From a virus (taxonomy: Duplodnaviria; Heunggongvirae; Uroviricota; Caudoviricetes): a stretch of DNA of 15,620 nt. The DNA is taken from IMG/VR virus record IMGVR_UViG_2663762841_000005, one strand, 5' to 3'. The stretch's first letter is position 1, and each line of letters opens with the position of its first letter. This document shows positions 2,766 through 15,620 of this stretch, piece after piece. Made by a program: the position numbers and the translations under genes. The notes under the pieces were generated by a model. The model did not search any database. It had not been told where the DNA came from and worked only from the letters and a program-made list of their open reading frames with translations.

Positions 2766-2813
2766 CACTGTTTATCCATACAGTTAAAAATAATACTGTA
2801 TACAAATACAGTG
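2762..2813 (+). promoter_or_regulatory. SOS-regulated promoter: -35 TTGACA (2762-2767), -10-like TAAAAA (2785-2790), LexA box TACTGTATACAAATACAGTG (2794-2813)
   Basis: CTGT-N8-ACAG at 2796-2811 is a perfect match to the LexA-box core and sits just downstream of the -10 and upstream of the DinI-like gene (SD AGGGGA at 2815-2820, ATG at 2826). Confidence 0.75.
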
Positions 2814-2825
2814 TAGGGGACTTTT

Positions 2826-3074: not shown

Positions 3075-3106
3075 GTTCATCATCTCTGGACACCATTCAC
3101 TTGTAT

Positions 3107-3135
3107 TGACTTTAAGATCATTAAATTGTAATAAT
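3107..3135 (+). promoter_or_regulatory. Sigma-70-like promoter (-35 TTGACT 3107-3112, 17-bp spacer, -10 AATAAT 3130-3135) driving the ncRNA-TM-RT module
   Basis: 5/6 matches in both hexamers with optimal spacing; the predicted transcription start (about 3142-3145) coincides with the first arm (a1) of the 12-nt inverted repeat. Confidence 0.4.
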
Positions 3136-3140
3136 TCAAA

Positions 3141-3277
3141 GGGATGGGGCAGGTTTTTCCTCTTGCGCATGCAAGGGCGGCTCTGATAATGAACAGTAAT
3201 ATTTTACTGTTGAGCTTATGCTCACTGATCCTGCCGGGCAGGATGTTCAACGGTTCCAATATATCCTGCCCCTTCCG
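3141..3277 (+). ncRNA. Candidate structured non-coding RNA upstream of the TM-RT gene pair (retron msr-msd-like or DRT-type ncRNA); boundaries approximate
   Basis: No ORF; flanked by an inverted repeat GGATGGGGCAGG (3142-3153) / CCTGCCCCTTCC (3265-3276), 12 nt with one mismatch. Internal hairpins: CTTGC-GCAT-GCAAG (3162-3175), CAGTAA-TATT-TTACTG (3194-3209), TGAGC-TTAT-GCTCA (3211-3224), and the 17-bp palindrome ATCCTGCCGGGCAGGAT (3228-3244). Sits between a promoter and the TM/RT genes. Confidence 0.35.
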
Positions 3278-3296
3278 CTTTTAAAAAGGATCTTTT

Positions 3297-3848
3297 ATGC
3301 ATGACAATATTTGGTTTACATATAAAGCACGTATCCAAGCGCACCATCGACTAGAATGGCTTGAAAAACACTCTCAATTTATCCTCGTTTGGTATGCTAT
3401 ATTGAGTGCGGTACTTTCAATTGTAACGTTGCGATTTCCAAAGGTTCTAGGAGATAATACAGATGTCGTTGCGGCGATACTTTCAGTGGCTCTACTGGGT
3501 ATTTCTCTGATCGTATCTAACCTAGATTTTCGTGGTCGAGCAATAGCCATGAGAAGGAATTATATTGCACTACAGCGACTCTATTTTGACATTACCACCA
3601 GTCAACAGTTATCTCTTGAACAGAAAGAAAAATATTTTAATTTGCTCAATGAGGTTGAGAATCACCGTGACATAGATGATAAAATTTCAAGGGTAACTCA
3701 AGTTGGACTTAAGACGAGGATCCCCACACAAAAAGAAAAAATAATTGTTATTTTATGGATATTACTTCGAATATTTATTACTGCCGCACTTTATATACTC
3801 CCATTAATATATCTTTGGATTGACTATGACTGCAAGCAGAATTTTTAA
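3297..3848 (+). CDS. Small multi-TM membrane protein (2 N-terminal TM helices plus a C-terminal hydrophobic segment); candidate effector of the RT module, possibly SLATT-like
   Basis: 183-aa ORF, AT-rich, SD AAGGA 7 nt before the ATG. Hydrophobic stretches FILVWYAILSAVLSIVTL, VVAAILSVALLGISLIVSNL and IIVILWILLRIFITAALYILPLIYLWI. Its 3' end overlaps the RT start by 29 nt, suggesting translational coupling. The SLATT assignment is a guess from architecture. Confidence 0.65.
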   Translation: MHDNIWFTYKARIQAHHRLEWLEKHSQFILVWYAILSAVLSIVTLRFPKVLGDNTDVVAAILSVALLGISLIVSNLDFRGRAIAMRRNYIALQRLYFDITTSQQLSLEQKEKYFNLLNEVENHRDIDDKISRVTQVGLKTRIPTQKEKIIVILWILLRIFITAALYILPLIYLWIDYDCKQNF

Positions 3849-5196
3849 AAAGTCATTCTCGAAAAAAAATCTTCTAAAAGTATACTCTGAAAAAATCAAA
3901 GAATCAGGAGCGATTGGCATAGATCGGATTCGCCCATCAAAACTTGATTTGACAATAAAAAATGAGATCACTTTCATTTTTGAAAAGGTTAATTCTGGCA
4001 ATTACAAATTTACAGCATATAAAGAAAAATTAATATCTAAAGGCGCTAACTCTACACCCAGACAGATTTCCATACCAACTGCTAGGGACAGAATTACTCT
4101 TAGAGCTCTCTGTGAATGCCTTACGGAAATATATCCTAAGTCCAGATTAAAACTACCACATACAGTAATTGACTCATTGAAAGAAGCATTAAACAACAGT
4201 CTATATGCTGAATATGCAAAAATAGATCTTAAAAGTTTCTATCCTTCAATTGAACATAAATTGATAATTAATGCAATAAAAAATAAAATTAGAAAAAAAG
4301 AAATTAGACAGTTAATAACATCATCATTAATCGTGCCTACTGTAAGTGGAACCACAGGAAGCAAAGGTATCCCTAATAATACCAGAGGAGTACCTCAGGG
4401 ATTAGCGATATCAAACATTTTAGCTGAAATATCACTATCTAATTTCGATGATGAAATCAATAAAATGCATGACATATGGTACATGCGATACGTTGATGAC
4501 ATTCTTATTTTAACACCAAAATATCAAGCAACAAAAATAGCTTCTCATATCATTGATAAGCTTCAATCATTAAATTTAAACCCACATCCATTAAATGAAG
4601 AGAACTCAAAATCCAAAGTAGGCAGTTTGGATGAAAGTTTTAACTTTTTGGGATACCACATAGAAAATCGAGAATTATTGATAAAACATGAGAGCATTCT
4701 TAGATTTGAGTCATCCTTAGCAAAAATTTTTACTGCATATAGGCACGCTCTACTACAAGCTAAAAGTAAGCGTGATAAAGAACGAGCTGTTGCATATTGT
4801 CAGTGGAAACTAAATCTCAGAATTACGGGATGTGTGTTTGAAGGTAAACGATTGGGATGGGTATCGTACTTCTCACAAATAACCTCAACAGCTCAACTTC
4901 GCTCTGTTAATCATACTATCAATAATCTTATCCGCCGATTCGGCCTTTCATCAGAAATAAAACCAAAATCTTTGATTAAAACTTTCTATGAACTCCGCAG
5001 AGGTAGAGCGGAGACTTTTAAATACATACCTAACTTTGACAATCTACATATATCTCAGAAACGAGAACTTGTTTCTATGTGGATAGGTAAAGAGAAGGAA
5101 AAAAAACTTAGCAATAGTGAAATAGAGAGGAAGTTTAAATTTAAAATTGCGAAATCAGTAAAAGAGCTTGAAGAGGATATTTCAGGAATATCATAG
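3820..5196 (+). CDS. Reverse transcriptase (prokaryotic retron/Abi/UG-type, defence-associated candidate)
   Basis: 458-aa ORF with canonical RT motifs: motif A IDLKSFYPSI (Asp about residue 136), motif B' GVPQGLAISNILAEISL (about 190-206), motif C YVDD (residues 224-227, nt 4489-4500), motif E-like FLGY, plus a C-terminal extension of roughly 170 aa. A possible retron-like NN..A and ITG (region-7 VTG-like) are present, but the spacing differs from Ec86, so the family call is tentative. Confidence 0.9.
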   Translation: MTMTASRIFKKSFSKKNLLKVYSEKIKESGAIGIDRIRPSKLDLTIKNEITFIFEKVNSGNYKFTAYKEKLISKGANSTPRQISIPTARDRITLRALCECLTEIYPKSRLKLPHTVIDSLKEALNNSLYAEYAKIDLKSFYPSIEHKLIINAIKNKIRKKEIRQLITSSLIVPTVSGTTGSKGIPNNTRGVPQGLAISNILAEISLSNFDDEINKMHDIWYMRYVDDILILTPKYQATKIASHIIDKLQSLNLNPHPLNEENSKSKVGSLDESFNFLGYHIENRELLIKHESILRFESSLAKIFTAYRHALLQAKSKRDKERAVAYCQWKLNLRITGCVFEGKRLGWVSYFSQITSTAQLRSVNHTINNLIRRFGLSSEIKPKSLIKTFYELRRGRAETFKYIPNFDNLHISQKRELVSMWIGKEKEKKLSNSEIERKFKFKIAKSVKELEEDISGIS

Positions 5197-5250
5197 ATAT
5201 GTAATCCATTAAGTCATTAAAATATATCGCAATAAACACACTATTTAAAC

Positions 5251-5667
5251 TCACAAACCAGCCGCAGTATCCTGCCATGGCAAGTTGCTGCGGCTTTTTA
5301 TGTTCAACGGATCAACAGCCAGATCAGAAGACACGCTACCCACGTTGTAAACGAACGAGTAAAGAGCGCCGCGCGTTGTTTCCGGTATATCGACTTTGAT
5401 GTACGGGTTAATTTGTCTGGCGACCGTGGCAAGGTCTTTATTCAGGAGGGCTTTGCATTCTGCTTCGGTATACGTTTTACCTAGCATGATGTCTTTTCCG
5501 GTGTGTCCGTAACATACAGTCCATACGCCAACGATATCTTTGTATGGTATGTAGCTGACACCTTCCAGGCCATCGTCACCACTTGGGCCAGTGATTAACA
5601 CTGATGCTATAGCAATTGCTCCGCCACCAATAGCAGCAGCAACTGCTTTTCGTAATGATGGAGGCAT
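5251..5667 (-). CDS. SAR endolysin (phage 21 R-type, T4-lysozyme-fold glycoside hydrolase), apparently 3'-truncated at the junction with the RT cassette
   Basis: N-terminal signal-anchor [27 protein letters not shown] followed by the lysozyme catalytic region ([26 protein letters not shown]...[15 protein letters not shown]). After about residue 110 (nt about 5340) the sequence loses lysozyme character and reads through the plus-strand terminator before stopping; full-length homologues are about 165 aa by my recollection. Its start overlaps the holin stop. Confidence 0.75.
5260..5300 (+). terminator. Rho-independent terminator of the RT operon (AGCCGCAG ... CTGCGGCT stem, then TTTTTAT)
   Basis: 8-bp perfect inverted repeat at 5260-5267 / 5288-5295 enclosing a palindromic TGCCATGGCA core, followed by a T-run at 5295-5299; about 65 nt downstream of the RT stop. 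Confidence 0.6.
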
Positions 5668-5882
5668 TATTCACCTCTTGCAGCCTTGCGCTTATCTTCT
5701 TTAATCTTGAAATAAAGGTTTGTCAGGTACGTCAGCAGGCCAAATACCAGGCTACCCAGCACACCTATTGCTGCCCACTGTGAGGGCGTGACTTTATCGA
5801 GCAGCTGTAAAAACCAGTAACCGGCACTACCTGCTGAGGTGCCATAGGCGACACCCGTTGTTAACTTATCCATGGATTTCAT
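5667..5882 (-). CDS. Phage 21 S-type pinholin (class II holin) with dual-start motif MKSMDK
   Basis: 71-aa product [29 protein letters not shown]...[13 protein letters not shown], closely resembling S21 (two TM helices, charged C-terminus, dual start Met1/Met4). SD GAGGTG lies upstream of the ATG at 5882. The track ORF 5667..5945 over-extends the N-terminus. Confidence 0.85.
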
Positions 5883-5949
5883 AACCCCACCTCGCAGATG
5901 CGGGTGCTGTGTAATGGAAATAAAAAGGCCACCTGACGTGGCCACCAGA

Positions 5950-7002
5950 TTATTTCCCCACCAGCTCGTTTATCTCTTTCACTGTCTGGTTAAACCGCTC
6001 TGACTCAAGCTCAACACCTAAGGCCCGACGCCCCAGCGCCATTGCTGCTTTTATTGTGGAACCGGATCCCATAAAAAAATCAGCAACCAGATCACCAGGT
6101 CGACTACTGGCATTGATTATTTGCCTGAGCATATCCGCCGGTTTCTCACACGGATGTTTACCCGGGTAGAACTGAACGGGTTTATGCATCCAGACATCGG
6201 TATAAGGCACGGAGACTGATACGGAGAAATAGCGCCGGAGAGATTTAAACTCATCCAGCAATTCAGAATATTTGCGATTCAGTGAATCATAAGATGCCAC
6301 CAGCTGGTGGTGTGGTTGTTCCAGTTGTTGTTCCTGAAACTTCTCTGCCGCTATACGGGAAAACAGTGCCTGTAACTTCCGATAGTCAGCCTCATTCGGC
6401 AACTGCCACTGACTGGCACCAAACCAGTGGGAAACCATATTTTTCTTACCTGTGGCTTCGGCAATTTGTTTTGCCGTTATACCCAGTTCGGCACGAGCAT
6501 CCCTGAAATACGATATCAGCGGTGCCATTATGTGCTGTTTGAGTTCCCTTTCTTTTGCCGCATAGCCGTCACTTTTGCCGCGATATGGCCCCTGGTAATG
6601 TTCAGCAAACAGAACGCGCTCTGTGGCAGGAAAATATGCGCGCAGACTTTCTTTATTACACCCATTCCAACGTCCGGACGGCTTCGCCCAGATGATATGG
6701 TTAAGCACGTTGAAACGTTCACGCATCATGATCTCAATATCAGATGCCAGGCGATGCCCACAGAACAGGTAAAGGCTTCCGGCAGGTTTTAACACCCGCC
6801 AGAACTGGGCCAGACAGTGGTCCAGCCACTTAAGGTAATCTTCGTCCCCTTTCCACTGATTGTCCCAGCCGTTGGGTTTCACCTTGAAGTACGGCGGATC
6901 GGTAACAATCAGGTCAATGGAATCATCAGGCAGGGACTGAATAAAATGCAGGCAATCAGCGTTGATTAAATCAACACTGTTTATTTTTACAGTATTTTTC
7001 AT
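5950..7002 (-). CDS. DNA methyltransferase (N6-adenine/N4-cytosine family, DPPY motif), orphan
   Basis: 350-aa ORF with motif IV TDPPYF near the N-terminus and a C-terminal AdoMet-binding region (DFFMGSGST). No adjacent restriction endonuclease gene is visible. Confidence 0.85.
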
Positions 7003-7151
7003 GGATCAGTAAGCGTAACTCTGGTAGGCTCACTCTGCTTTTGCGCTAAAGCAGTGGGCCGTGGTTCGCTTGTGACCAGTAAGCATGAGCGAATGGCTGG
7101 CAGGTGCTACCAACACCCACCAGCCGCCCATTTTCACAAATTAAAAGTCCT

Positions 7152-7370
7152 TCATTGCTGAAGGCGTCTGTAACAGCCGAACTGGTAATCTGCCAGCCCC
7201 GCCATAACCAACTGGGTCAGTATTAACTGACAGCGTTCGCGTGAAAGATATGTGTTTTGTGCAATCTCCCCGACTGTTGCCGGTTCGATGCTTAATTCAT
7301 TAAAAACAACTTTCGCCGTTTCTGTCATATCTTGCTGTTTTAGCATGTCTTTTTTCCTTCTGGTTAACAT
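7152..7370 (-). CDS. Hypothetical small protein (72 aa)
   Basis: ORF only; basic N-terminus, possible helix-turn-helix-like segment (ATVGEIAQNTYLSRERCQLIL). No confident family assignment. Confidence 0.4.
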   Translation of the reverse strand: MLTRRKKDMLKQQDMTETAKVVFNELSIEPATVGEIAQNTYLSRERCQLILTQLVMAGLADYQFGCYRRLQQ

Positions 7371-7467
7371 GACATACCAATAACTCTTGTCTAAAAAGCC
7401 AGCAAGATAAAAAGTCAGTATTCACGACCACCAGCGTGTTTACCGTACTGCACCAGGTTTACAGGTA

Positions 7468-7494
7468 CAAAAAAACCCGCTCTACGGCGGGTTT
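7468..7494 (-). terminator. Rho-independent terminator on the minus strand (AAACCCGC / GCGGGTTT stem, 6-nt loop, U7 tract)
   Basis: On the minus strand the 8-bp stem (plus-strand 7473-7480 / 7487-7494) is followed by a run of seven T; possibly the lambdoid tR'-type terminator downstream of a late promoter remnant. Confidence 0.6.
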
Positions 7495-7592
7495 AAGCTG
7501 TGTGGCGAAGTAACCACTCTTAACAGATTATGATAGTTTTTGCGTACGCGTTAGTAATTTATTATGCTCTTTACAATTGTTAGCTTAACCGC

Positions 7593-8759
7593 ATGGAATT
7601 GACCAAAAAAATGAGCAAAGCAAGCATACGCCACGTAATCGTTCATGAGCTCTTAAAAGAATCTAATAAAGACTTCGATCACTCCAAACCATACAATCTT
7701 CGTGATACAGAACTAGATAAAACAAATGATATAGTAAAAAAATTAGTAGACGGTGTTATTGATTTGTATGGTTCAAAAGGGAACTCAGCGCATTATGGTG
7801 TTTTTATTAAAAATAAAACAAAGCAAGGCCCTATACCAGAACTATTTCATAAATACTCTTTAGTTCAACAATCTGTTTCAAGTGATTTCATTGAATTATC
7901 GAAGGAAGTTATGAAACAAATGTATAAATCTGCTCAAGAGCAGATTTGGGCTTCTGGAGGATATGTTGTTTTTACTGATTATATTTTATCTGGTTTCCGT
8001 TATCTATTGGTTACAATGATCAAAAAAACTAATGGCGTAACTATTAGTGAAAATTTAGAGCCAGAGGAAATGATTCACTTAGAACTTGGTAATATTAACC
8101 AAGCAGCAAAAATAAATTTCAGATATTATGAAGAATACCAAAAAGCAGATGACTTAAAAAAAACAGACTTAAGTTATCTAAGCTTTATAAGCAAAACTAC
8201 GGGACAGTCAGCGGCAGCATATTTTATAGCAGCATTAGGATGTGACAAGGGGATTGCTTCAGCAGGTGCAACCCGTAAGTTACCAGATGAAATAAGGCGT
8301 TTCTTTAAGAAAGAACCTCTTTTAAAAAATCAAGCAGAGTCATTTAGAAATGATGTTATCAAATACTTAGAAAAGCAATTTGACAACGAGCACTCTGCAA
8401 GGCTTTCTGATATCGAATCGCTTGCTTCAGGCCATATGTCCTATTTAAAAGAGGAAGAAAAAACAGAACTTGTTGATAAATTAATGAAACACCTCAATAG
8501 TGAGGAAGTCAGAATCCCATCAGAGTTCGTAATCAATAAAAACTCCTTAGATAAAATCAGCAATGTGATATATAAAACCCCATCATTGAGCTTTCACTTC
8601 GACAAGGATTTACTCGGTGTCACAACTGATGCTAAAATATATTATGATGACGAAAACCAAAGCCTAACATTTAATAATTTGCCTGTTGAAGCATTAACTA
8701 AGATAAGAAGAGCGTTGAAAGAAACTGATAACCCAAGTAATGAAGAAGATAAAGAATGA
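7593..8759 (+). CDS. Nucleoid-associated protein NdpA/YejK-family homologue (divergent, AT-rich)
   Basis: 388-aa ORF with YejK-like blocks: IRHVIVHELLK near the N-terminus, GGYVVFTDYILSGFRYLLVTMIKKTNGVTISENLEPEEMIHLELGNINQAAKIN, and YLSFISKTTGQSAAAYFIAALGCDKG. The probable true start is the ATG at 7611 (MSKASIRHV...), which aligns with the YejK N-terminus; 7593 is the longest ORF. Its stop overlaps the start of the next gene (ATGA). Confidence 0.75.
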   Translation: MELTKKMSKASIRHVIVHELLKESNKDFDHSKPYNLRDTELDKTNDIVKKLVDGVIDLYGSKGNSAHYGVFIKNKTKQGPIPELFHKYSLVQQSVSSDFIELSKEVMKQMYKSAQEQIWASGGYVVFTDYILSGFRYLLVTMIKKTNGVTISENLEPEEMIHLELGNINQAAKINFRYYEEYQKADDLKKTDLSYLSFISKTTGQSAAAYFIAALGCDKGIASAGATRKLPDEIRRFFKKEPLLKNQAESFRNDVIKYLEKQFDNEHSARLSDIESLASGHMSYLKEEEKTELVDKLMKHLNSEEVRIPSEFVINKNSLDKISNVIYKTPSLSFHFDKDLLGVTTDAKIYYDDENQSLTFNNLPVEALTKIRRALKETDNPSNEEDKE

Positions 8760-9982
8760 ATGATTTTAGTATAATAGTTAATCTGTATAGATTATCAAGC
8801 TATCCTCATTTTGACGGGGCTAAGTTTTCTGCGCGTATAGCTTATAATGCAGACGTAAAATCATTGTTCAAAAGAATTTTGAACCCTACTTTTCAAGCTG
8901 GTACAGCTGACGAAATAGAGGTGGATGGTCATTTAATTTATGATTATGAAGACTTTCCTGAAAAGGGAAATTTTCTTACATACTCGTTTAAAATTTCACA
9001 AGGAAGTGCGAATCGTTTTTATAAAAATAAAAACGAGTTTGTAAAAATAAACACGCTCAAGAAAGGCATAATGCCAGAGTATTTCTATATTATAGAGGAT
9101 GATTTCTATTCATTAGAAACACCAAAACCTTCTTATATCCAAAAAATTGAGGACATTTGTGAGCTAATCAATGCTCTTTCCATGCTTGCTCATTTCCATG
9201 ATATAAAAAAAGATAGCAAAGGTACATTTTATCGTTTAGTCTTTATTTTAAACTCAGAGTCTAAATCTTCTTCTGCTGTAATTGAAACAAATATTACAGA
9301 AGAAATTTTTAATGATAAAACAGTAAATACTCAGTTAGTTAAAACATTAGTAAGTAGTGAAGCTACTACTGATGCCCATCACATTGAAAAGATTAACACT
9401 TTCAGAAACACAGTTATTGAGTATGTTAATAAAAATGGAAATTCCTTTGTCGAGTTAATTAACAAGTGGGATTTCATATGCGAACTTTATACGAACAACT
9501 TAGCTGCTTATATGTCGGCATTTTCTTTTCATAAAGCAAGGAAAGAAGTTGTTGATGCTGAACTCGATTACTCAGAAAAACTGTCAAAAATAATTTCAGA
9601 AATTTCTAACAAAGCTCTTGCAATACCTATTTCACTAGCTGGTTCAATTGCTATTTTCAAATTAACAACAAAAGCTGATTGGATTATTGCTTTAATTGGA
9701 TTGATTATCACAGCAATAATAACATCTGCAATGATTGTGTCACAAAAAAAACAACTTGCTCGTATTTCACACTCTAAAGAAATACTTTTTGGACAATTAA
9801 GATATAGAATAAAGGATGACACCAGCGATCTTAAAGAGAGCTTAGAAGAGGCTATTAAAAAATTAAATGACAATGAGGATTTTTGTCATAAGGTGCTTGA
9901 CAGTTTATTATCACTAGCATGGATGCCTACATTCATAGGCATCATCGGTATTTTATTTAAATTAATGCCAAATATTACTTGA
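8756..9982 (+). CDS. Hypothetical protein with soluble N-terminal domain and three C-terminal TM helices; candidate membrane effector partner of the NdpA-like protein
   Basis: 408-aa ORF, AT-rich, translationally coupled to the upstream gene (4-bp overlap). Predicted TM segments at about residues 287-302, 309-327 and 383-403 (nt about 9614-9964). No recognisable catalytic motifs. Its 3' end overlaps the 3' end of the convergent Q gene by 8 bp. Confidence 0.7.
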   Translation: MNDFSIIVNLYRLSSYPHFDGAKFSARIAYNADVKSLFKRILNPTFQAGTADEIEVDGHLIYDYEDFPEKGNFLTYSFKISQGSANRFYKNKNEFVKINTLKKGIMPEYFYIIEDDFYSLETPKPSYIQKIEDICELINALSMLAHFHDIKKDSKGTFYRLVFILNSESKSSSAVIETNITEEIFNDKTVNTQLVKTLVSSEATTDAHHIEKINTFRNTVIEYVNKNGNSFVELINKWDFICELYTNNLAAYMSAFSFHKARKEVVDAELDYSEKLSKIISEISNKALAIPISLAGSIAIFKLTTKADWIIALIGLIITAIITSAMIVSQKKQLARISHSKEILFGQLRYRIKDDTSDLKESLEEAIKKLNDNEDFCHKVLDSLLSLAWMPTFIGIIGILFKLMPNIT

Positions 9983-10334
9983 GCATGTACATAACCCCAT
10001 TAATGAAACCTAACGCAGTCTGCAATTGCTTCCGGATTGTTCCATCTGAGCATCTGCGTCTCTTCGCAATAGAACGCAGTGAAATACCTATAACGAAGTG
10101 AGCAATGATCAGCTCATATTCGTCTGGTTTATACTTACACAGGCGGGCAACACAGCCGTCTATCATGATGCCTTCATCATCATCACACTGAAGGCGTATT
10201 TTTTTACCATGAGGTAAAAGCCCCTTAAAGCCTGCTGCTATCGGCTGCCAGTCCACACCACTGTTATCTGCTGCAGCCCACGCTCCCCAGCGGTCTAAAA
10301 CTTCATACATATCACGCATCAACTTTCTCCACAA
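9975..10334 (-). CDS. Lambdoid antitermination protein Q (phage 82/21-type, QuuD-like)
   Basis: 119-aa product with LDRWGAWAA, IAAGFKGL, QCDDDEGIMIDGCVARL and CSDGTIRKQL blocks, matching the small Q-family antiterminators as I recall them. Confidence 0.8.
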   Translation of the reverse strand: MWRKLMRDMYEVLDRWGAWAAADNSGVDWQPIAAGFKGLLPHGKKIRLQCDDDEGIMIDGCVARLCKYKPDEYELIIAHFVIGISLRSIAKRRRCSDGTIRKQLQTALGFINGVMYMLK

Positions 10335-10336
10335 AA

Positions 10337-11332
10337 TCAGGCCAGCACGCCAATTGCCAGCGCACGATCGATAAAACGAAATATCAGCTCCAGCTGGGAG
10401 CCATACTTCTCTTCAAATGCCACGGTATCCGCATGCAGCTCGTCGTGATGCTTTCTGCACAAAGGCAACACAAAAAGGTCATGCGCTTTTGTTCCCATTC
10501 CACCCTGACCGTGACCTATCAGGTGGTGGGGATCATCAGCGGGCTTTCCACAACATGCACACGGCTGTGTCTTAACCCAGCGCGTGTACTTTTCATTAAC
10601 CCAGCGGCGACGTTTGGGGCGTAACATAAAAGACTCCGGCGACTCCGGATCCACTTTCAGCGCCAGCACCTTTTTCGCCTTATCCTGGATGATGCTGGTG
10701 GCAGGAACCGAAGGCACAAGGTCACTTTCCCGGGTAACAGACGGCACAACAGGCTTCGGTAATCTCAGTGCCTTACGGGCTGCACTTTCCGGTAAGGCAT
10801 CCGCCAGATCATTACGAATCAGCCACCAGCACAGTTCCGGCATTGTCACAACGTGACTGTCATCAAAACCGAGATCCCGACGCACAACAGACAACACCCA
10901 GCGGGCACAGTTATCCGTTGCCATTGATTCCAGCCGTTCCGTGAACTGATCGCGCAGCTGGTTATCGCAGTGCCAGCACAGACGGATTGCACCCGGAGCG
11001 TGTCGCATTGTGGTCATGTTCTCGCTGTGCCAGTCGGAATGAGGCCACTGGCAGCCTTTTTCACGAAGTAACCAGCTTTCAAGACATTCCACGCCACCAG
11101 CACGACGGATCACTGCCTCATTGCGGAACACGGCCCGAACGGCAGGATCATCCGCCAGCGGTTGTGATGCCGCCGGAACGGCACCACTGGCGAAAGATGA
11201 ATAACGCTCCGGCTCAGGCTCCAGCAGGACACGCCCCTGCATAAACAGGGGCATCAACTCTGAACCTGGCCTGAACAATACGATCCCCATACGCGGGGCA
11301 ATTTCAGGGGTCAGTAGTGCTCTCACGGTCAC
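10337..11332 (-). CDS. Phage protein, DUF968-like with C-terminal HNH/zinc-finger-like motif
   Basis: 331-aa ORF; the C-terminal CACCGKPADDPHHLIGHGQGG...CRKHHDELH cluster resembles HNH-type metal-binding motifs; position in the nin-like region upstream of Q. Confidence 0.65.
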   Translation of the reverse strand: MTVRALLTPEIAPRMGIVLFRPGSELMPLFMQGRVLLEPEPERYSSFASGAVPAASQPLADDPAVRAVFRNEAVIRRAGGVECLESWLLREKGCQWPHSDWHSENMTTMRHAPGAIRLCWHCDNQLRDQFTERLESMATDNCARWVLSVVRRDLGFDDSHVVTMPELCWWLIRNDLADALPESAARKALRLPKPVVPSVTRESDLVPSVPATSIIQDKAKKVLALKVDPESPESFMLRPKRRRWVNEKYTRWVKTQPCACCGKPADDPHHLIGHGQGGMGTKAHDLFVLPLCRKHHDELHADTVAFEEKYGSQLELIFRFIDRALAIGVLA

Positions 11333-11333
11333 C

Positions 11334-12131
11334 TCAATGAACGGTATCGAGCAGCTTTAACAGCTCAGGGAATCGGGATTCGAAGAAATGCGGCTGCGTC
11401 TCGCGCGGATTTGCGGGACTGGTGATGTTCTTGCCGAACATGCAACCTTTCGCTGTCAGCGACCAGAATTTTTTGATGTTGTTAATCGCGGTACGACTGT
11501 ATCGTTCGCGCTGCTCGACGATCCCCAGCTTCACCATCTGGTGATATGCCTGATTAGCTGTCAGGCGGATACCATACTGCTTCAGCAGTGCACTCAGTGA
11601 CAGCGTGGGGCGGCTTGAGCCATCAGGCGCGTCAGCAGGAGCATCAATGGCATAGCGCGGTGCCAGATTCGGTAAGCCAACAGCCTCCTGGAGTTTCTGA
11701 CAGGCACCAAGCACTGAAGAGTTAGACAGGTTTAATTCCCGGCGCATAAAGTCCAGCAGAATCACACCAGCCTGCATCTTGTCAGCAGCCTGTCCGGATA
11801 ATTTTTCCGGTGCGCTGGTTACCATGTCGAAAGTACGGATCACCTTAAGATGGAATGACGGGCTTATCCACATTGCATAGGCATACACCAGTTCTTTGCA
11901 GACATACGTCCCCTGGTTATTTCCGCCACGAATAACGTTAACTGGCTCTATATTGACCGAGTTGCAAATCTGCAACTCGCTTATTAAACGTTCAGTTTGC
12001 TCATTGCGGAGCCAGAATGCAGGCTTATGCTTATCCAGAGAACCGGCAGCCCTGTGCAGATCGTTCAGGCTGTAACGCCCATAAGCATCACGACGAACTT
12101 CAATACCATCAATAACCATCAGATTATTCAT
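11334..12131 (-). CDS. KilA-N domain protein (antirepressor-like)
   Basis: 265-aa ORF with an N-terminal KilA-N-like segment (MNNLMVIDGIEVRRDAYGRYSLNDLHRAAG...). Confidence 0.7.
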   Translation of the reverse strand: MNNLMVIDGIEVRRDAYGRYSLNDLHRAAGSLDKHKPAFWLRNEQTERLISELQICNSVNIEPVNVIRGGNNQGTYVCKELVYAYAMWISPSFHLKVIRTFDMVTSAPEKLSGQAADKMQAGVILLDFMRRELNLSNSSVLGACQKLQEAVGLPNLAPRYAIDAPADAPDGSSRPTLSLSALLKQYGIRLTANQAYHQMVKLGIVEQRERYSRTAINNIKKFWSLTAKGCMFGKNITSPANPRETQPHFFESRFPELLKLLDTVH

Positions 12132-12150
12132 ACTTCGTTTCTCCTCTTAA

Positions 12151-12540
12151 TCAGGCGGCTGCACCCGCCGGTTTCTCATACTTACTGATAGTGATCTCGA
12201 CCTTCCCTTTCGGGATAACCGGTCCCCACTCCACCAGCATTCTTTTCACCTGTCTGTCGTCTTCCCACACACCCGCGTGGGTCAACGCGTCAAACAGCGC
12301 CTTGTTATAGTTGTCCAGATCGCGGATCCGGTTATCCGGAGGAAACAACACGATCTCCACTGAAGCAGGTGCCGACGTTGGTTTCGGCAGACGACGTAAC
12401 TGCTCAACTATTGCTGCGCACGCCGCGCTCTGAAATTTTCGCCCCGCCTCGCTTATCAGGCTCTTACCAGCAAATGCCCCTTTGTTGGGGTGTCGCCAGT
12501 ACGTGTTCACACTGGGCGGGAAAGGAAGGATCAACTTCAT
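12151..12540 (-). CDS. rusA: RusA-family Holliday junction resolvase
   Basis: 129-aa product with RusA-like blocks (PPSVNTYWRH..., RDLDNYNKALFDALTHAGVWEDDRQV, VEITI). Confidence 0.85.
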   Translation of the reverse strand: MKLILPFPPSVNTYWRHPNKGAFAGKSLISEAGRKFQSAACAAIVEQLRRLPKPTSAPASVEIVLFPPDNRIRDLDNYNKALFDALTHAGVWEDDRQVKRMLVEWGPVIPKGKVEITISKYEKPAGAAA

Positions 12541-12863
12541 ACTTTCAGGCCCCTCTCATGTAACCAGTGGGCTGCACGCAACCTGGCGTTCTCCTCACCG
12601 GCAAGCAGTGCGCGGATGATACCGACCGCCTCGCTGTCGTCGTCCTTCACTGCGGTATGAAGCGTGATCCCCCGGGCCACGCCACGCTTTATCGTGATGA
12701 CGCCTTTTTTCTCCAGTGCGCGAAGATGCTCCACGGCTGCATTCACTGAACGGTATCCCAGCATGGTTGCCACCTCCTGATTGGTTGGCAGAAAGCCACG
12801 CTCTTGCTGGTAAGAAATCAGAATATCCAGCACCTGCTGCTGGCATTGAGTTAACGTCGTCAT
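12537..12863 (-). CDS. LexA-type N-terminal DNA-binding domain protein (no S24 peptidase domain)
   Basis: 108-aa ORF; the N-terminus LTQCQQQVLDILISYQQERGFLPTNQEVATMLGYRSVNAAVEHLRALEKKGVI resembles the LexA winged-HTH domain; overlaps neighbours by 4 bp on each side (operon context). Confidence 0.6.
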   Translation of the reverse strand: MTTLTQCQQQVLDILISYQQERGFLPTNQEVATMLGYRSVNAAVEHLRALEKKGVITIKRGVARGITLHTAVKDDDSEAVGIIRALLAGEENARLRAAHWLHERGLKV

Positions 12864-13546
12864 GCCGCCATCTCCCTAACCAGTTTTTCCGCCTGCTGGC
12901 GAACCTGCGCCAGAAACGCCTCACCACATGCCTCAAGTTCATCGCGCCCGATGTAGCTGATTGCCGGTCCCTTCCAGGTCTTATCGAAAACAGCAATAGC
13001 ACCAGCGAAGAAAGCGCCTGTCGGCACCTGCTTCTCATCCTTCGGGATAAACCAGGCAGGCAGTTCAAAACCAATACGCCCGCGAATAAAAGCAATATGG
13101 TCCGCATCTTCCGGCCACCACACTTCGCTGGTGGCAGCTTTGATCAGGAAAACATAGCGCCCACCCTTATCACGCATGGCACTGGCATGTTTCATGATGT
13201 AACGCATGCCGGTGATGTATTGCCCCTCATGCTGACTGGCGCGGCTGTATGGGGGATTACCAAAGGCAGCCCCTTTAAGCTCCGCAAGACGTTCTGACCA
13301 GTCATGCGCCAGCGCGTTGTCTTCCGCCGTGTAATACGCAGCACATTTGGCGTTATCACCGTCAGTGAACAGATCCAGAACAAACGGGCCAAACAGGGTG
13401 TTAATTCCCCAGAAAATGTTGTCCGGCGTGCGCCACTGATCGCCCACTTCCTTCAGTTCATGGGCTGGTTTGTTCCGCAGTTCCACCAGCGCCTGGCAAT
13501 ATTTATTACTCATTAAGCCCCCACGTAATTCCCTGACAGATACCAC
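12860..13546 (-). CDS. Phage Dam-like N6-adenine DNA methyltransferase
   Basis: 228-aa ORF with motif GNPPYS (DPPY-type) and similarity in layout to phage N-6-adenine-methyltransferase family proteins. Confidence 0.8.
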   Translation of the reverse strand: MVSVRELRGGLMSNKYCQALVELRNKPAHELKEVGDQWRTPDNIFWGINTLFGPFVLDLFTDGDNAKCAAYYTAEDNALAHDWSERLAELKGAAFGNPPYSRASQHEGQYITGMRYIMKHASAMRDKGGRYVFLIKAATSEVWWPEDADHIAFIRGRIGFELPAWFIPKDEKQVPTGAFFAGAIAVFDKTWKGPAISYIGRDELEACGEAFLAQVRQQAEKLVREMAA

Positions 13547-14007
13547 TCATCACCCGGTACAGCGCGCTTGCTGCTTTTCCGTAAACACCGCTCACGACGC
13601 GCAAGAAAATTGTTTCGCTCTGGCTGGGAGTGGCTTTCACGGAATGCCGCCATCCACACCGTTGCAGCACGACGGTATAAGCCCCTCGACTCCAGTTCTT
13701 CCGCCTGGCGGGTCAGGCACAAAATCACCCGGGGATCGTTAGTGCCGACATAGAAATTGCGCACAGGTCTGGTTTCACGAACTGGTTGCGGTTCCGCCTC
13801 CTGCGCTCTCTCAGTCAGGCGCGGGAAATGTCTGCGTGTATCCCCTTCACAACGGTGAGCCACACGACCACTCTGACGTAACTTGCTTGCTGACTGCAGA
13901 ACGCGCTGCCGTGAGTAACCTGCAAAAGCATCCGCAATGTCTCCGGAAGTACACCCCGGATGGGCTTCAATGTATTTCTGAACTTCATTCAAAAGACTCA
14001 TGATCAC
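13513..14007 (-). CDS. PerC-like transcriptional regulator domain protein
   Basis: 164-aa ORF; the C-terminal region QAEELESRGLYRRAATVWMAAFRESH...RRERCLRKS resembles PerC/Pch-family activators (AQELEAAGLWRRA...). The N-terminal start is uncertain because it overlaps the Dam gene by 34 nt. Confidence 0.5.
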   Translation of the reverse strand: MIMSLLNEVQKYIEAHPGCTSGDIADAFAGYSRQRVLQSASKLRQSGRVAHRCEGDTRRHFPRLTERAQEAEPQPVRETRPVRNFYVGTNDPRVILCLTRQAEELESRGLYRRAATVWMAAFRESHSQPERNNFLARRERCLRKSSKRAVPGDEWYLSGNYVGA

Positions 14008-14822
14008 CCCCTGAATCCTGCCGGGATCTGGCTGTAGTCCACGTTGTCGTAACTGGCTTTGAAGTACGGGTCCTCGCGTCTGGCTGCAGATACCGCAGGA
14101 ACTTCCCAGGATTCTTCGAAATGACGATCCGGACCAAAGAACGTGACAGCCTGTTTCACAAATTGTGTGCCGCTGTTACCCATCGCAGATACCCAGCCCG
14201 CGTAGCGTTTCACACCTTCCAGCATGGTTTCGGGGTTTACCCCCTCATTCAAACGGGCTTTCCAGGCTTTGAAGGCTGCAGATTTTGAATTGCCACCAGC
14301 ACGTTTGGGATATACCAGCCATGCCTGCTCAAACTCCGGAGAGTATTCCGGTCGGTTTGAACGAACTCGCACGGACTCATCAACTGATGCACCAACAGCT
14401 ATTGGTTCATTGACTGGTTCTTTGACTGGTTCAAAAGAGTGACTGGTTCTGGGTGAATCTCCTGCACTACCCCCTGGTGCAACTCCTGCACTACCTGGTG
14501 AATTTGCTGCACCAGATAGTGAATTATTTGCACTACCCCCTAGTGAATCTCCTGCACCATCCAGATGAAGGAGATAGATATTACTTGAGTTACCTTTTTC
14601 ACCTTTCCGGGTGACTTTTTTTACCAGCCCGGACTCACAAAGGGCCGCAATATGATTCATCACAGAACGTTTGCTAATCTCGCACTGGTCAGCAATATGC
14701 TGGTAGCTGGGCCAGCACTCACCCTGATCGCTGGCATTATCAGCCAGCTTGATCAGAACCAGTTTTCGCAATGGATTACCCACTCGAATTTTCATCGCTT
14801 TAACCATCAGCTCCATACTCAT
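14004..14822 (-). CDS. Phage replication initiation protein: N-terminal HTH (replisome organiser-like) and C-terminal DnaT-like domain, with internal iteron region
   Basis: 272-aa ORF; N-terminal HTH-like segment (WPSYQHIADQCEISKRSVMNHIAALCESGLV), low-complexity Gly/Ser/Ala linker encoded by tandem repeats, and a C-terminus YSQIPAGFRG resembling the DnaT (primosomal protein I) C-terminus. Confidence 0.75.
   Translation of the reverse strand: MSMELMVKAMKIRVGNPLRKLVLIKLADNASDQGECWPSYQHIADQCEISKRSVMNHIAALCESGLVKKVTRKGEKGNSSNIYLLHLDGAGDSLGGSANNSLSGAANSPGSAGVAPGGSAGDSPRTSHSFEPVKEPVNEPIAVGASVDESVRVRSNRPEYSPEFEQAWLVYPKRAGGNSKSAAFKAWKARLNEGVNPETMLEGVKRYAGWVSAMGNSGTQFVKQAVTFFGPDRHFEESWEVPAVSAARREDPYFKASYDNVDYSQIPAGFRG
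14410..14562. repeat. Iteron-like direct repeats inside the replication gene: 3 x TGACTGGTTC, then about 5 tandem 21-23-bp units (consensus about GGTGAATCTCCTGCACTACC)
   Basis: TGACTGGTTC at 14411, 14423 and 14440; tandem units starting near 14452, 14476, 14497, 14519 and 14542. The arrangement (iterons within the initiator gene) parallels lambda ori within gene O. Confidence 0.6.
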
Positions 14823-15055
14823 GCTGCACCTCCGAGATGCTTCATGTTTTTTCCGGAGCGAAAGGCTATAAGCGGCATACTGACGCGGTAATTACGGCCC
14901 AGCGGTTCACAAATCACCTTCTGGCATTCACGGTCAACCAGGCTAACACGTAGAACATGCCCTGCAGGTGTGGTGTACCACTGCCCAACTGTAGGAATTG
15001 ATGTTTTTTTACGCTGAAGCAAACGGCAAATATTGAGGATCAACGGATTAAGCAT
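14819..15055 (-). CDS. Hypothetical phage protein (78 aa)
   Basis: ORF with a 4-bp overlap to the downstream replication gene; no family recognised. Confidence 0.35.
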   Translation of the reverse strand: MLNPLILNICRLLQRKKTSIPTVGQWYTTPAGHVLRVSLVDRECQKVICEPLGRNYRVSMPLIAFRSGKNMKHLGGAA

Positions 15056-15593
15056 GACGATGCCCTCCGCTGATATTCAGGAGACGGTGAATATGAAAAT
15101 TAGCCTTATCCGCCAGACGAATACGTTCAGCCTGCAAGTTAAGAAGGGTTTCTACCAGAACTTGATGCGCCTGCGGATCCGAAAGAGTTACCTTGCGCAG
15201 AGCACGTAGTGCAGTTGTTACATAACTGAGTTTATGTAAGTCTTCATCATTCAGACGAGTGAGGGCTGGGACAGTAGCCATGATGGCAGCCTCCGATAAC
15301 AGTGAATTACCTTCACCACCGGAAACGCCAATTTCGCTGGTGGTGAACTGAACGGGGTTGGCGTAACCGGCGTTATCGGAAACCGGCGCACCTTTCGGTG
15401 CCCCCGTCCAGCCCACCATAATTTGGGTGTGCACAGACGCAGACGATAAAAAAGACGCTGGCGCGTCATATATCGCCGATAACATTTCCAGGACGCCAAT
15501 CCCGGCACCCGCTTTATAAGGTGCCTGAACAGTGTAACGTCCCGGAATGGCAGAATCAATGTGCTGGTGGTCCTTCACACTCAACAAAATCAC
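15048..15593 (-). CDS. Hypothetical phage protein (181 aa); start may lie nearer the window edge
   Basis: Longest ORF in the region; overlaps the next gene by 8 bp. No family recognised; an alternative-frame ORF (15251..15559) is judged spurious. Confidence 0.4.
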   Translation of the reverse strand: MILLSVKDHQHIDSAIPGRYTVQAPYKAGAGIGVLEMLSAIYDAPASFLSSASVHTQIMVGWTGAPKGAPVSDNAGYANPVQFTTSEIGVSGGEGNSLLSEAAIMATVPALTRLNDEDLHKLSYVTTALRALRKVTLSDPQAHQVLVETLLNLQAERIRLADKANFHIHRLLNISGGHRHA

Positions 15594-15620
15594 GCCTGAA
15601 TTTCCACAAAGGACTAAAGC

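What the first reader, a model, noticed from the sequence alone, without database searches (positions are those of the whole stretch)
14410..14562. Iteron-like tandem repeats inside the replication initiator gene (putative origin)
Seen in sequence: three copies of TGACTGGTTC followed by about five imperfect 21-23-bp tandem units that encode a Gly/Ser/Ala low-complexity linker. Established knowledge: lambda ori iterons lie inside gene O and are bound by the O N-terminal domain. Inference: this is the origin of the ancestral phage, and the protein is a fusion-type initiator (HTH plus DnaT-like C-terminus).
Basis: partly seen in the sequence, partly recalled or inferred. Interest (0 to 1): 0.45.

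Follow-up and report, generated by a model that had tools for sequence, protein, structure and literature searches.

The report
Phage replication origin inside initiator gene
The repeats are real and are most likely the replication origin of a lambda-like prophage, lying inside the gene for the protein that binds it; the arrangement is well known, but here it occurs in a widespread initiator family for which I found no described origin.

Summary
Observation confirmed. The repeats lie on the minus strand inside a 272-aa gene (14004-14822), the HTH_36 replication protein known as SfV orf39, ST64B sb42 or 'Eru6'. Five 17-bp dyad-symmetric units, RGTGCA-N5-TKCACY, are spaced 24/21/21/24 bp (14452-14558). 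They are followed by GAACCAGTCA x3 plus a degenerate fourth copy (14399-14449).

The same layout follows the winged-helix domain in about 60 homologous loci from many gammaproteobacterial genera and phages: 3-6 units, 94% of spacings 21-24 bp, then the 10-mer block.

The DNA is conserved, not the peptide:
- Units are read in more than one frame in 20 of 52 arrays, and occur in both orientations.
- Synonymous codons of the 10-mer block are invariant, while those of the N-domain are saturated.
- Unit type tracks the recognition helix (Mantel r 0.58), not the swappable C-domain (0.16).
- Half-sites vary independently, so there is no hairpin covariation (RNA fold z -0.5).
- Unit number ranges from 1 to 9 among near-identical E. 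coli alleles.

Best reading: a lambda-type intragenic iteron origin belonging to a different initiator family. Binding and origin activity are untested. 'DnaT-like' holds only for the last nine residues (SQIPAGFRG). This is a new member of a known kind, of moderate interest.

The parts
14004..14822 (-). Replication initiator gene (272 aa): N-terminal winged helix, disordered repeat-encoded linker, helical C-terminal domain.
   Evidence: ORF and translation. Pfam HTH_36 at 44.1 bits against a cutoff of 25, and PHROG 270 'replication initiation protein' at E 7e-88. 99.6% identical to SfV orf39 'replication protein' and 87.5% to the ST64B replication protein. The same protein accession, WP_021527492.1, occurs in a complete 44.6-kb circular phage with no other replication gene listed.
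14559..14822 (-). Coding region of the winged-helix DNA-binding domain (aa 1-88). The recognition helix is around aa 49-62 (ISKRSVMNHIAAL).
   Evidence: In the AlphaFold2 model aa 1-88 have pLDDT of about 72-94, with three to four helices plus a beta-hairpin wing. Foldseek gives only generic winged-helix hits, including DnaD-N 2v79. The library of representative proteins holds 7511 clusters (50% identity) that match this domain at E<=0.001.
14542..14558 (-). Iteron 1: GGTGCAGGAGATTCACT.
14518..14534 (-). Iteron 2: AGTGCAAATAATTCACT.
14497..14513 (-). Iteron 3: GGTGCAGCAAATTCACC.
14476..14492 (-). Iteron 4: AGTGCAGGAGTTGCACC.
14452..14468 (-). Iteron 5: AGTGCAGGAGATTCACC. It abuts the conserved block at a fixed distance in all family members.
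   Evidence: The last unit lies 2-3 nt before the first GAACCAGTCA in the homolog loci.
14399..14451 (-). Family-wide conserved, comparatively A+T-rich block, CCAGAACCAGTCACTCTTTTGAACCAGTCAAAGAACCAGTCAATGAACCAATAG. It carries GAACCAGTCA at 14449-14440, 14432-14423 and 14420-14411, and the degenerate GAACCAATAG at 14408-14399. Candidate unwinding or helicase-loading element.
   Evidence: Exact copies. Synonymous codons are invariant across 43 loci. GC of the 45-bp block is 0.40 against 0.53 for the gene, and lower in 52 of 52 loci. The block ranks among the least stable 30-mers of the gene, median percentile 0.99. It is read in three different frames in different family members.
14562..14600 (.). 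A+T-rich flank on the other (5') side of the array, GC about 0.33. In this window it is the least stable stretch near the array, but it is not conserved as A+T-rich in the family.
14007..14351 (-). C-terminal domain (aa 158-272): a helical core followed by a disordered tail. This part is exchanged between family members.
   Evidence: PHROG hits to 'DnaD-like helicase loader', 'primosomal protein' and 'replication protein' families over aa 145-272. No Pfam hit. The AlphaFold2 model has helices at 162-224 and a tail with pLDDT below 50. Nine C-domain clusters are shuffled against N-domain types.
14007..14033 (-). C-terminal tail SQIPAGFRG, matching the extreme C-terminus of E. coli DnaT (SQIPPGFRG).
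   Evidence: BLASTP gives 8 of 9 identities, at the last residues of both proteins.

Best explanation
The segment 14399-14558 is the cis-acting replication origin of the lambdoid prophage, embedded in the interdomain linker of its own initiator gene.

The proposed mechanism:
1. Five 17-bp sites with dyad-symmetric ends (RGTGCA-N5-TKCACY), phased every 21 or 24 bp (two helical turns), are bound by the initiator's N-terminal winged-helix domain, probably as dimers. Together they build an O-some-like nucleoprotein complex.
2. This complex destabilises an adjacent low-stability tract. The most likely tract is the family-wide conserved, 12-bp-periodic GAACCAGTCA block immediately 3' of the last iteron.
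3. The exchangeable C-terminal domain and its DnaT-like tail then bring in the host helicase machinery.

Shown computationally: the architecture, the DNA-level constraint, the covariation with the recognition helix, the uniqueness of the site, and the domain structure of the protein.

Inferred: binding, dimer stoichiometry, which flank opens, and how the helicase is recruited.
For: (1) Same architecture in every relative examined. In 52 arrays (the window plus L082-L132, many genera) there are 3-6 units; 168 of 179 spacings are 21-24 bp; and the last unit lies at a fixed 2-3 nt from the 10-mer block. Seven phage homologs were found by tblastn, so they were not selected through the conserved peptides: AsXd-1, Vibrio D67, Stx2a_F403, S107, S1249, mEp044 and D79. 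In each, the best 17-mer family of the whole gene falls directly after the winged helix.

(2) The DNA is constrained, not the peptide.
- Units lie in more than one reading frame in 20 of 52 arrays, through compensating 23+22-bp spacings. GGTAGTGCAGGAGATTCACC, for example, is read as GSAGDSP or as VVQEIHQ.
- Six of 25 arrays carry units in both orientations, giving SAGDSP versus SESPAP.
- In the 10-mer block, P/R/T/S/H/S/F/E are always CCC/AGA/ACC/AGT/CAC/TCT/TTT/GAA. Codon entropy is 0.27 bits against 1.27 bits in the N-domain (Mann-Whitney p = 7e-6).
- Among near-identical alleles, third-position variable sites number 4 of 53 inside the repeats against 50 of 219 outside (p = 0.012).
- The encoded peptide is predicted to be disordered.

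(3) Specificity. Unit sequence tracks the recognition helix (Mantel r = 0.58). It tracks the conserved N-terminal part (0.16) and the C-domain (0.16) far less. One example is the contrast between SKRSVMNH with GTGCA..TKCAC, RSTVK.H with GGGGCRG.AG.T..CC, and DRSTVRKH with GTAGGCCCAGAAAGCAC.

(4) Half-sites vary independently of each other: GTGCA+TGCAC 34, GTGCA+TTCAC 32, GTGAA+TTCAC 18, GTGAA+TGCAC 17. This is what a protein contacting each half-site would give, and not what a hairpin would give.

(5) Both repeat kinds occur only here in a complete 44.6-kb phage. No extra cognate units turn up in the 193 kb scanned across the 52 loci.

(6) That phage has no other replication gene listed. The gene sits in the early-right operon downstream of the Cro- and CII-like genes.

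(7) Copy number varies as in known origins. There are 1-9 units and 1-4 twelve-mers among roughly 90-99% identical E. coli alleles.

(8) Precedent. Lambda, P22, L and Stx phages have iterons plus an AT-rich tract in the middle of the initiator gene, and the O proteins exist as dimers (PMC7466680, PMC8022706).
Against: - There is no experimental evidence of binding or origin activity for any member of this family in the literature I could search.
- The presumed unwinding block is only moderately A+T-rich (GC 0.42 in the window). In this window the least stable 30-mer near the array lies on the opposite flank.
- No helicase-loader, helicase or primase gene lies next to the initiator here.
- Alleles with only one or two units exist. 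They may be dead prophages, or they may mean that few units suffice.
- Iterons and recognition helix lie only about 100 bp apart. Physical linkage therefore contributes to their covariation; the contrast with the equally close C-domain is what carries the argument.
- The genome-contig sample was retrieved with peptide patterns that include MELMVKAM and HSFEPVKE. Peptide-level conservation of those motifs in that sample is therefore partly ascertainment. Codon-level invariance is not, and neither are the tblastn and N-domain-only samples.
Confidence: 0.75

Rival explanations
1. The units are genuine binding sites for the initiator's own N-domain, but they serve regulation rather than origin function. 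Examples would be autoregulation, roadblocking of early-right transcription, or titration. The true origin would lie elsewhere.
For: All DNA-level evidence shows a protein-binding array, not initiation itself. The adjacent tract is only moderately A+T-rich. No helicase or loader gene is adjacent.
Against: No other repeat array or cognate site exists in the complete phage or in the flanks of the 52 loci. The position, phasing and dyad symmetry, the low-GC neighbouring block and the copy-number variation all mirror proven origins of lambda, P22 and Stx phages (PMC7466680, PMC8022706). An intragenic site in mid-operon is an odd place for an operator.
Confidence: 0.1
2. The invariant GAACCAGTCA block is mainly a recombination joint. 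It would be a short conserved DNA stretch at the boundary between the N-domain-plus-iteron module and the C-domain module, kept or spread because it allows homologous exchange between mosaic phages. It would not be an unwinding or loading element. This rival concerns the 10-mers only.
For: N- and C-domains are shuffled exactly across this block; for example L108 combines an RSTVK-type N-domain with the C-domain of L087-L092. The block is the only stretch with invariant synonymous sites.
Against: Internal 12-bp periodicity and a variable copy number of 1-4 are not needed for a joint. Low GC is maintained even in 60%-GC Pseudomonas genes, 52 of 52 loci. The distance to the last iteron is fixed. 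The two roles are not exclusive.
Confidence: 0.07
3. The repeats are a by-product of a low-complexity flexible Gly/Ser/Ala/Pro linker that expands and contracts by slippage, and have no function as DNA.
For: The encoded stretch is predicted to be disordered. Its length varies widely among alleles. The composition is low-complexity.
Against: The same DNA units are kept in different reading frames and orientations, giving unrelated peptides. Synonymous sites are constrained. Unit type covaries with the recognition helix. Phasing is held at 21-24 bp even when that breaks the codon frame.
Confidence: 0.03
4. The palindromic units act as RNA or single-stranded DNA hairpins, for example in mRNA stability or translational control.
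For: Each unit has complementary ends (GTGCA/TGCAC).
Against: The RNA fold of the region is no more stable than shuffles: z = -0.52, with 64 of 200 shuffles folding at least as well. There is no meaningful Rfam match. Positions 4 and 12 of the unit vary independently, with 57 of 113 units asymmetric. This is the opposite of base-pair covariation.
Confidence: 0.02

Closest known systems
Phage lambda ori-lambda with the O protein, and the O/ori of Stx phages 933W and P27
   Same: Iterons lie in the middle of the initiator gene, next to a lower-GC tract. The initiator has an N-terminal DNA-binding part and a C-terminal part that recruits the helicase machinery. Iteron number differs between relatives: 4 in lambda and 6 in Stx phages (PMC7466680), against 1-9 here. 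The gene sits in the early-right operon after the cro- and cII-like genes.
   Different: The initiator gives no Pfam match to a lambda-O-type family; it matches HTH_36 instead. No P-like partner gene lies downstream; a PerC-like gene follows. The iteron sequence is different. The neighbouring tract is a family-wide invariant block of 10-mer repeats rather than a plain AT-rich run.
P22 gene 18 and phage L gene 18 origins
   Same: Distantly related or unrelated ori-binding proteins each carry their own repeats inside their coding region: four ~20-bp repeats in P22 gene 18 and six 11-bp repeats in L gene 18. The L repeat region was inferred to be the origin from sequence alone (PMC8022706).
   Different: Those initiators pair with a DnaB-type helicase gene (gene 12). 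No such gene is present in this window.
Iteron plasmids (RK2 TrfA, F RepE, pPS10 RepA) with repeats in the DNA unwinding element
   Same: Winged-helix initiators bind iteron arrays next to an AT-rich unwinding element, where Rep proteins make sequence-specific contacts with single-stranded DNA (PMC4081077, PMC4980987, titles and abstracts seen). The iteron size and phasing of about two helical turns and the short repeats in the unwinding element are from my own knowledge. The 12-bp-periodic GAACCAGTCA block could be the analogue.
   Different: Plasmid iterons lie outside the rep gene. Rep proteins have two winged-helix domains and a monomer/dimer switch (own knowledge). The DnaA boxes typical of those origins (own knowledge) are absent near this array.
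DnaD-like or 'replisome organizer' phage initiators, such as SPP1 G38P (from my own knowledge, not tested here)
   Same: There is a weak Pfam DnaD_N match (24.3 bits, below the cutoff of 27) and a Foldseek hit to DnaD-N 2v79. The PHROG neighbours are annotated 'DnaD-like helicase loader'. As I recall, SPP1 also has an origin inside its initiator gene.
   Different: Similarity is at the generic winged-helix level only, with no Foldseek E-value at or below 0.001.
E. coli DnaT (primosomal protein I)
   Same: The last nine residues are nearly identical, SQIPAGFRG against SQIPPGFRG, at the extreme C-terminus of both proteins. DnaT is thought to recruit DnaB-DnaC to the restart primosome (PMC5778457).
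   Different: There is no detectable similarity elsewhere and no DnaT hit among solved structures. The function of the DnaT tail was not established in the papers read.

Membership tests
Lambda-type intragenic iteron origin | Three or more direct repeats of about 17-20 bp, each with internal dyad symmetry. | tested here: met
   Five units RGTGCA-N5-TKCACY. There are 3-6 units in all 52 arrays.
Lambda-type intragenic iteron origin | The repeats lie inside the initiator ORF, between the DNA-binding part and the C-terminal part. | tested here: met
   The units are encoded by aa 89-124, between the winged helix (aa 1-88) and the helical C-domain (aa 158 onward). The position is the same in seven independently retrieved phage homologs.
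Lambda-type intragenic iteron origin | An adjacent A+T-rich, low-stability tract. | tested here: met
   GC of the 45-bp block 3' of the array is 0.42 in the window and 0.40 on average, against 0.53 for the gene; it is lower in 52 of 52 loci. Its median stability percentile is 0.99. The tract is only moderately A+T-rich, and in this window the 5' flank is even less stable.
Lambda-type intragenic iteron origin | Iteron sequence is specific to the initiator's DNA-binding domain (cognate pairs). | tested here: met
   Mantel r = 0.58 between unit type and recognition helix, against 0.16 for the C-domain. This is a correlation only; physical linkage contributes to it.
Lambda-type intragenic iteron origin | The initiator binds the repeats and replication starts there. 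| not testable with these tools
   Needs EMSA or footprinting, an ori-plasmid assay or origin mapping.
Lambda O protein family (homologs of lambda O) | Sequence membership in a lambda-O-type Pfam family (such as Phage_rep_O). | tested here: not met
   The Pfam scan at E<=0.01 returns HTH_36, DnaD_N (weak), B-block_TFIIIC and HTH_20, and no lambda-O-type family.
HTH_36 (PF13730) winged-helix proteins | Score above the Pfam gathering threshold. | tested here: met
   44.1 bits against a cutoff of 25, over aa 17-67. The winged-helix model is confident.
DnaT (primosomal protein I) | Similarity over the DnaT domains. | tested here: not met
   BLASTP against E. coli K-12 DnaT aligns only the last 9 residues, 8 of 9 identical, E 0.01 for the pair.
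Iteron-plasmid Rep proteins (two winged helices) with DnaA-box origins | A plasmid-Rep-type Pfam match, and DnaA boxes next to the iterons. | tested here: not met
   No plasmid-Rep-type Pfam family is hit. No TTATNCACA match with up to one mismatch lies between 12133 and 15620.

The most novel reading that the evidence does not exclude
The origin is bipartite and modular. A variable set of specificity iterons is read by a fast-evolving recognition helix. A universal block, AGAACCAGTCACTCTTTTGAACCAGTCA, is kept base-for-base across Enterobacterales, Pseudomonas, Shewanella, Xenorhabdus, Marinomonas, Vibrio and Aggregatibacter phages. This block would be a common sequence-specific opening or helicase-loading element, recognised as single-stranded or double-stranded DNA by the invariant first 47 residues of the initiator or by a conserved host factor. 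The same block would double as the joint at which N-domain-plus-iteron modules and helicase-recruiting C-domains are swapped.
Probability: 0.3. Interest if true: 0.65.

Novelty: new member of a known kind. Interest (0 to 1): 0.45.

Why it matters
This initiator family is very common. About 3040 of 5426 complete E. coli genomes match the query segment that holds this gene. There are 5428 database proteins at E<=1e-5, and 7511 clusters at 50% identity match the N-domain. The family includes serotype-converting SfV, ST64B and the 'Eru6' Shiga-toxin phages. In Stx phages, phage DNA replication is reported to be needed for effective toxin production (PMC7466680), yet the papers that define the Eru replication types never mention iterons.

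Locating the origin gives a concrete, testable cis element. It also provides a natural table pairing recognition-helix types with half-site types for a winged-helix initiator. Finally, it is a clear case of a coding sequence shaped by a DNA-level constraint, because the same DNA is kept across reading frames and orientations. The general principle of an origin inside the initiator gene is textbook knowledge, which limits the surprise.

Tried and rejected
- **RNA structure.** The fold of the sense strand has z = -0.52. Rfam gives only a sub-threshold miRNA match. Rejected.
- **DnaA boxes near the array.** None found.
- **Extra cognate sites elsewhere, such as operators.** None at up to 2 mismatches in the 193 kb scanned across the 52 loci, nor in a 44.6-kb phage. 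One degenerate-pattern hit at 15301-15317 is not within 2 mismatches of any real unit and is probably chance.
- **Sequence search of solved structures.** No informative hit.
- **Foldseek against the PDB.** Only generic winged-helix matches, none at E<=0.001.
- **NCBIfam.** Nothing above its cutoffs.
- **'Eru2A' of Stx2c phages.** I first suspected it was this protein. It is not, because Eru2A carries Phage_rep_O and is followed by a DnaB-like gene. The matching type is Eru6, Stx2a_WGPS2, at 97.8% identity.
- **Single-linkage clustering of unit, helix and C-domain types.** It over-merged and was uninformative. I replaced it with average linkage and Mantel tests.
- **SfV genome paper.** It could not be retrieved, so I cannot exclude that it mentions the repeats.
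- **Full-text search for the 10-mer sequence.** It found only unrelated primers.
- **'Plasmid' records carrying the gene.** These are whole phage-sized circles, not small replicons, so they give no natural minimal-replicon test.
Full report
**What is in the window**

The finding lies inside a minus-strand ORF, 14004-14822, of 272 aa. Three exact TGACTGGTTC copies are present on the + strand at 14411, 14423 and 14440. Tandem Repeats Finder reports a 24-bp period, 4.6 copies, at 14453-14557.

On the coding strand the array resolves into five 17-bp units, RGTGCA-N5-TKCACY:
- 14558-14542
- 14534-14518
- 14513-14497
- 14492-14476
- 14468-14452

Their spacing is 24, 21, 21, 24 bp. They are followed by GAACCAGTCA x3 and a degenerate GAACCAATAG, spaced 17, 12, 12. 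The degenerate unit pattern gives 6 hits in the window against 0.49 expected, and 0 of 200 shuffles reach 6. Two details change: the gene is on the minus strand, and the units are dyad-ended sites phased at two helical turns.

**The gene and its setting**

The protein has a Pfam HTH_36 domain (aa 17-67, 44.1 bits against a cutoff of 25). It matches PHROG 270 'replication initiation protein' at E 7e-88. Its C-terminal half matches PHROGs annotated 'DnaD-like helicase loader', 'primosomal protein' and 'replication protein'.

It is 99.6% identical to SfV orf39 ('replication protein'), 87.5% identical to the ST64B replication protein (annotated sb42), and 97.8% identical to the protein of Stx2a_WGPS2. 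Stx2a_WGPS2 is the representative of replication type 'Eru6' (PMC8951638).

The window is a prophage remnant at dusA, in this order:
- integrase
- a DinI-like gene
- a SLATT plus reverse-transcriptase pair
- a truncated lysozyme gene
- the early-right operon on the minus strand: Ash-like, 78 aa, initiator, PerC/YfdN, Dam, LexA-like, RusA, KilA-N, DUF968, Q

No helicase, loader or primase gene is present. The identical protein (WP_021527492.1) occurs in a complete 44.6-kb lambdoid genome assembled as a circle, in which no other replication gene is listed.

AlphaFold2 gives three regions:
- a confident winged helix for aa 1-88
- disorder for aa 91-157, which covers everything the repeats encode
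- a helical core at aa 162-224, followed by a disordered tail

Foldseek finds only generic winged-helix folds, including DnaD-N.

**The architecture is a family trait**

I examined 51 homologous genes from genome contigs of Phytobacter, Leclercia, Enterobacter, Pseudomonas, Shewanella, Marinomonas, Xenorhabdus, Erwinia, Microbulbifer and others. In every one, an array of 3-6 units follows the winged helix. Of 179 spacings, 168 are 21-24 bp. The last unit sits 2-3 nt from a GAACCAGTCA-type block.

That sample was retrieved with peptide patterns that include the conserved motifs. I therefore repeated the test on seven phage homologs found by tblastn: AsXd-1, Vibrio D67 and D79, Stx2a_F403, S107, S1249 and mEp044. 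For these I searched the whole gene without prior. The best 17-mer family again falls directly after the winged helix, with 21-24-bp spacing (30 bp for two spacings in D79, whose N-domain is only 30% identical).

A search with the N-domain alone (88 aa) gave 121 representative proteins of at least 200 aa. Of these, 114 carry a recognisable translation of the 10-mer block in one of three reading frames.

**The DNA is constrained, not the peptide**

This is the core of the argument, and five results support it.

1. *Reading frame.* In 20 of 52 arrays the units lie in more than one frame, through compensating 23+22-bp spacings. The same DNA, GGTAGTGCAGGAGATTCACC, is read as GSAGDSP in the window and as VVQEIHQ in Pseudomonas. 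GGTGACAGAGAGTCACC is read as GDRESP or VVTESHP in Erwinia, mEp044 and D79.
2. *Orientation.* Six of 25 arrays of the GTG..CAC class contain units in both orientations, GTGCAGGAGATTCAC and its reverse complement GTGAATCTCCTGCAC. These encode unrelated peptides.
3. *Synonymous codons in the 10-mer block.* Across 43 loci, P, R, T, S, H, S, F and E are always CCC, AGA, ACC, AGT, CAC, TCT, TTT and GAA. Synonymous sites of the highly conserved N-domain are saturated by comparison. Mean codon entropy is 0.27 against 1.27 bits (p = 7e-6). The block is also read as PEPVTL or as NQSLNQ in other members.
4. *Near-identical E. coli alleles.* Among 55 distinct alleles, third-position variable sites number 4 of 53 inside the repeats against 50 of 219 outside (p = 0.012).
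5. *Hairpins.* RNA and hairpin readings fail. The fold has z = -0.52. Positions 4 and 12 of the unit vary independently: GTGCA pairs with TGCAC 34 times and with TTCAC 32 times; GTGAA pairs with TTCAC 18 times and with TGCAC 17 times.

**Specificity**

The first 47 residues of the N-domain are almost invariant. The recognition helix and the wing, by contrast, fall into classes, and each class has its own unit:

| Recognition helix | Unit |
|---|---|
| S(K/R)RSV..H | GTG(C/A)A-N5-T(G/T)CAC |
| RSTVK.H | GGGGCRG.AG.T..CC |
| DRSTVR(K/R)H | GTAGGCCCAGAAAGCAC |
| (H/K)STVRKH | (G/A)TGCC..CAGATAGCAC |
| SKSAVR.H (Xenorhabdus) | (G/A)TGCC.-N5-TGGCA |

Unit distance correlates with recognition-helix distance (Mantel r = 0.58). 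It correlates far less with the conserved N-part (0.16) or the C-domain (0.16). C-domains are shuffled against N-domains, and the iterons always travel with the N-domain. L108 is an example. The exchange point is therefore the conserved block. This is the pattern expected for cognate initiator-iteron pairs, although physical linkage contributes to it.

**Other origin-like properties**

- Both repeat kinds occur only at this site in the 44.6-kb phage. No extra cognate units appear in the 193 kb scanned across the 52 loci.
- The iteron array is G+C-richer than the gene (0.58 against 0.53). The 45-bp block after it is A+T-richer (0.40), and lower than the gene in 52 of 52 loci. This holds even in Pseudomonas genes of about 60% GC.
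- The block ranks among the least stable 30-mers of the gene, with median percentile 0.99. In this window the opposite flank (14562-14600) is still less stable, so which side opens is unresolved.
- Close E. coli alleles differ by whole units: 1 (P0042), 2 (P0028), 5 (the window), and 7-9 (P0021, P0003, P0024, P0001). They also carry 1-4 twelve-mers (P0017, P0018, PhiR63_1). It also recalls the 4 iterons of lambda against the 6 of Stx phages (PMC7466680).

**Most likely mechanism**

*Shown:* a unique, phased array of dyad-ended sites under DNA-level selection, matched to the recognition helix of the protein that the same DNA encodes, and followed by a conserved low-GC repeat block.

*Inferred by analogy with lambda O/ori-lambda and iteron plasmids* (PMC7466680, PMC8022706, PMC4081077):
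- Dimers of the winged-helix domain occupy the units on one face of the helix and build an O-some-like complex.
- An adjacent tract opens. I favour the GAACCAGTCA block.
- The C-terminal domain recruits the host helicase.

The only DnaT-like feature is the last nine residues, SQIPAGFRG against SQIPPGFRG of E. coli DnaT. This may mimic a DnaT contact, but the role of that tail was not established in the reviews read.

My confidence in the origin reading is about 0.75. My confidence in the specific role of the 10-mer block is about 0.4.

**Comparison with what is known, and novelty**

Iterons inside the initiator gene are established for lambda, P22, L and Stx phages. The element works like those.

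It is not a member of the lambda O protein family, since the Pfam scan returns no lambda-O-type family. It lacks an adjacent P or DnaB partner gene, and it has no DnaA boxes nearby.

The papers that define the corresponding Stx-phage replication types never use the word 'iteron'. Full-text searches for the family or for the 10-mer sequence found nothing relevant. The SfV genome paper could not be read.

I therefore class it as a new member of a known kind. It is well supported computationally, untested experimentally, and of moderate interest.

The less ordinary aspects are the base-for-base conservation of the 10-mer block across distant genera and its apparent double role as the module-exchange joint.

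Noticed in passing
window 14007-14033 (-): The initiator ends in SQIPAGFRG, nearly identical to the extreme C-terminus of E. coli DnaT (SQIPPGFRG). This may be a short-motif mimic of a host primosome contact. The rest of the protein is unrelated to DnaT.
   Followed up: partly
L087-L132 (ends of the homologous genes; translations): Family members with other C-domains end in short acidic-hydrophobic tails (...TSDDL...DPEDPLI...SDCNW...RNAFL...NEYL). From memory these resemble SSB-type C-terminal tails. This suggests that different C-termini dock onto different host partners.
   Followed up: no
window 3297-5196 (+): A SLATT-domain protein (PADLOC RTasSLATT, E 1.5e-56) overlaps a reverse transcriptase (PADLOC RT_UG17, E 1.2e-158). 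This is a DRT-type anti-phage defence pair, sitting next to the prophage integrase and a DinI-like gene.
   Followed up: partly
window 7593-9982 (+): A two-gene insert lies opposite to the phage operon, between the Q antiterminator and the methyltransferase and lysis genes, which is the position of stx in Stx phages. It consists of a 37-kDa nucleoid-associated-protein homolog (Pfam NA37, E 5e-50) and a 408-aa protein with no Pfam or PADLOC hit.
   Followed up: partly
window 15301-15317 (+), inside the Ash-like gene: A single extra match to the degenerate unit pattern, AGTGAATTACCTTCACC, lies about 740 bp from the array. It is not within 2 mismatches of any real unit and is probably chance.
   Followed up: partly
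window 1-15620; L149: The prophage is a remnant integrated at dusA. The lysozyme gene rrrD is truncated and no morphogenesis genes follow, yet the initiator and origin are intact and identical to those of a complete 44.6-kb phage.
   Followed up: yes
window 14682-14816 (-), aa 3-47 of the initiator; L082-L136: The first ~47 residues (MELMVKAMK.KVGNPLRKLVLIKLADNA.D.GECWPSYQHIADQCEI) are almost invariant across distant genera while their synonymous sites are saturated. This is strong protein-level constraint of unknown cause, next to a fast-changing recognition helix. Part of it may be ascertainment, because of the search pattern MELMVKAM.
   Followed up: partly
proteins P0025, P0027, P0039 and P0047-P0050: Database proteins fuse the initiator, or most of it, to neighbouring gene products (RusA, PerC, Dam and others). 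These are probably deletion variants or gene-calling read-throughs in decaying prophages.
   Followed up: no
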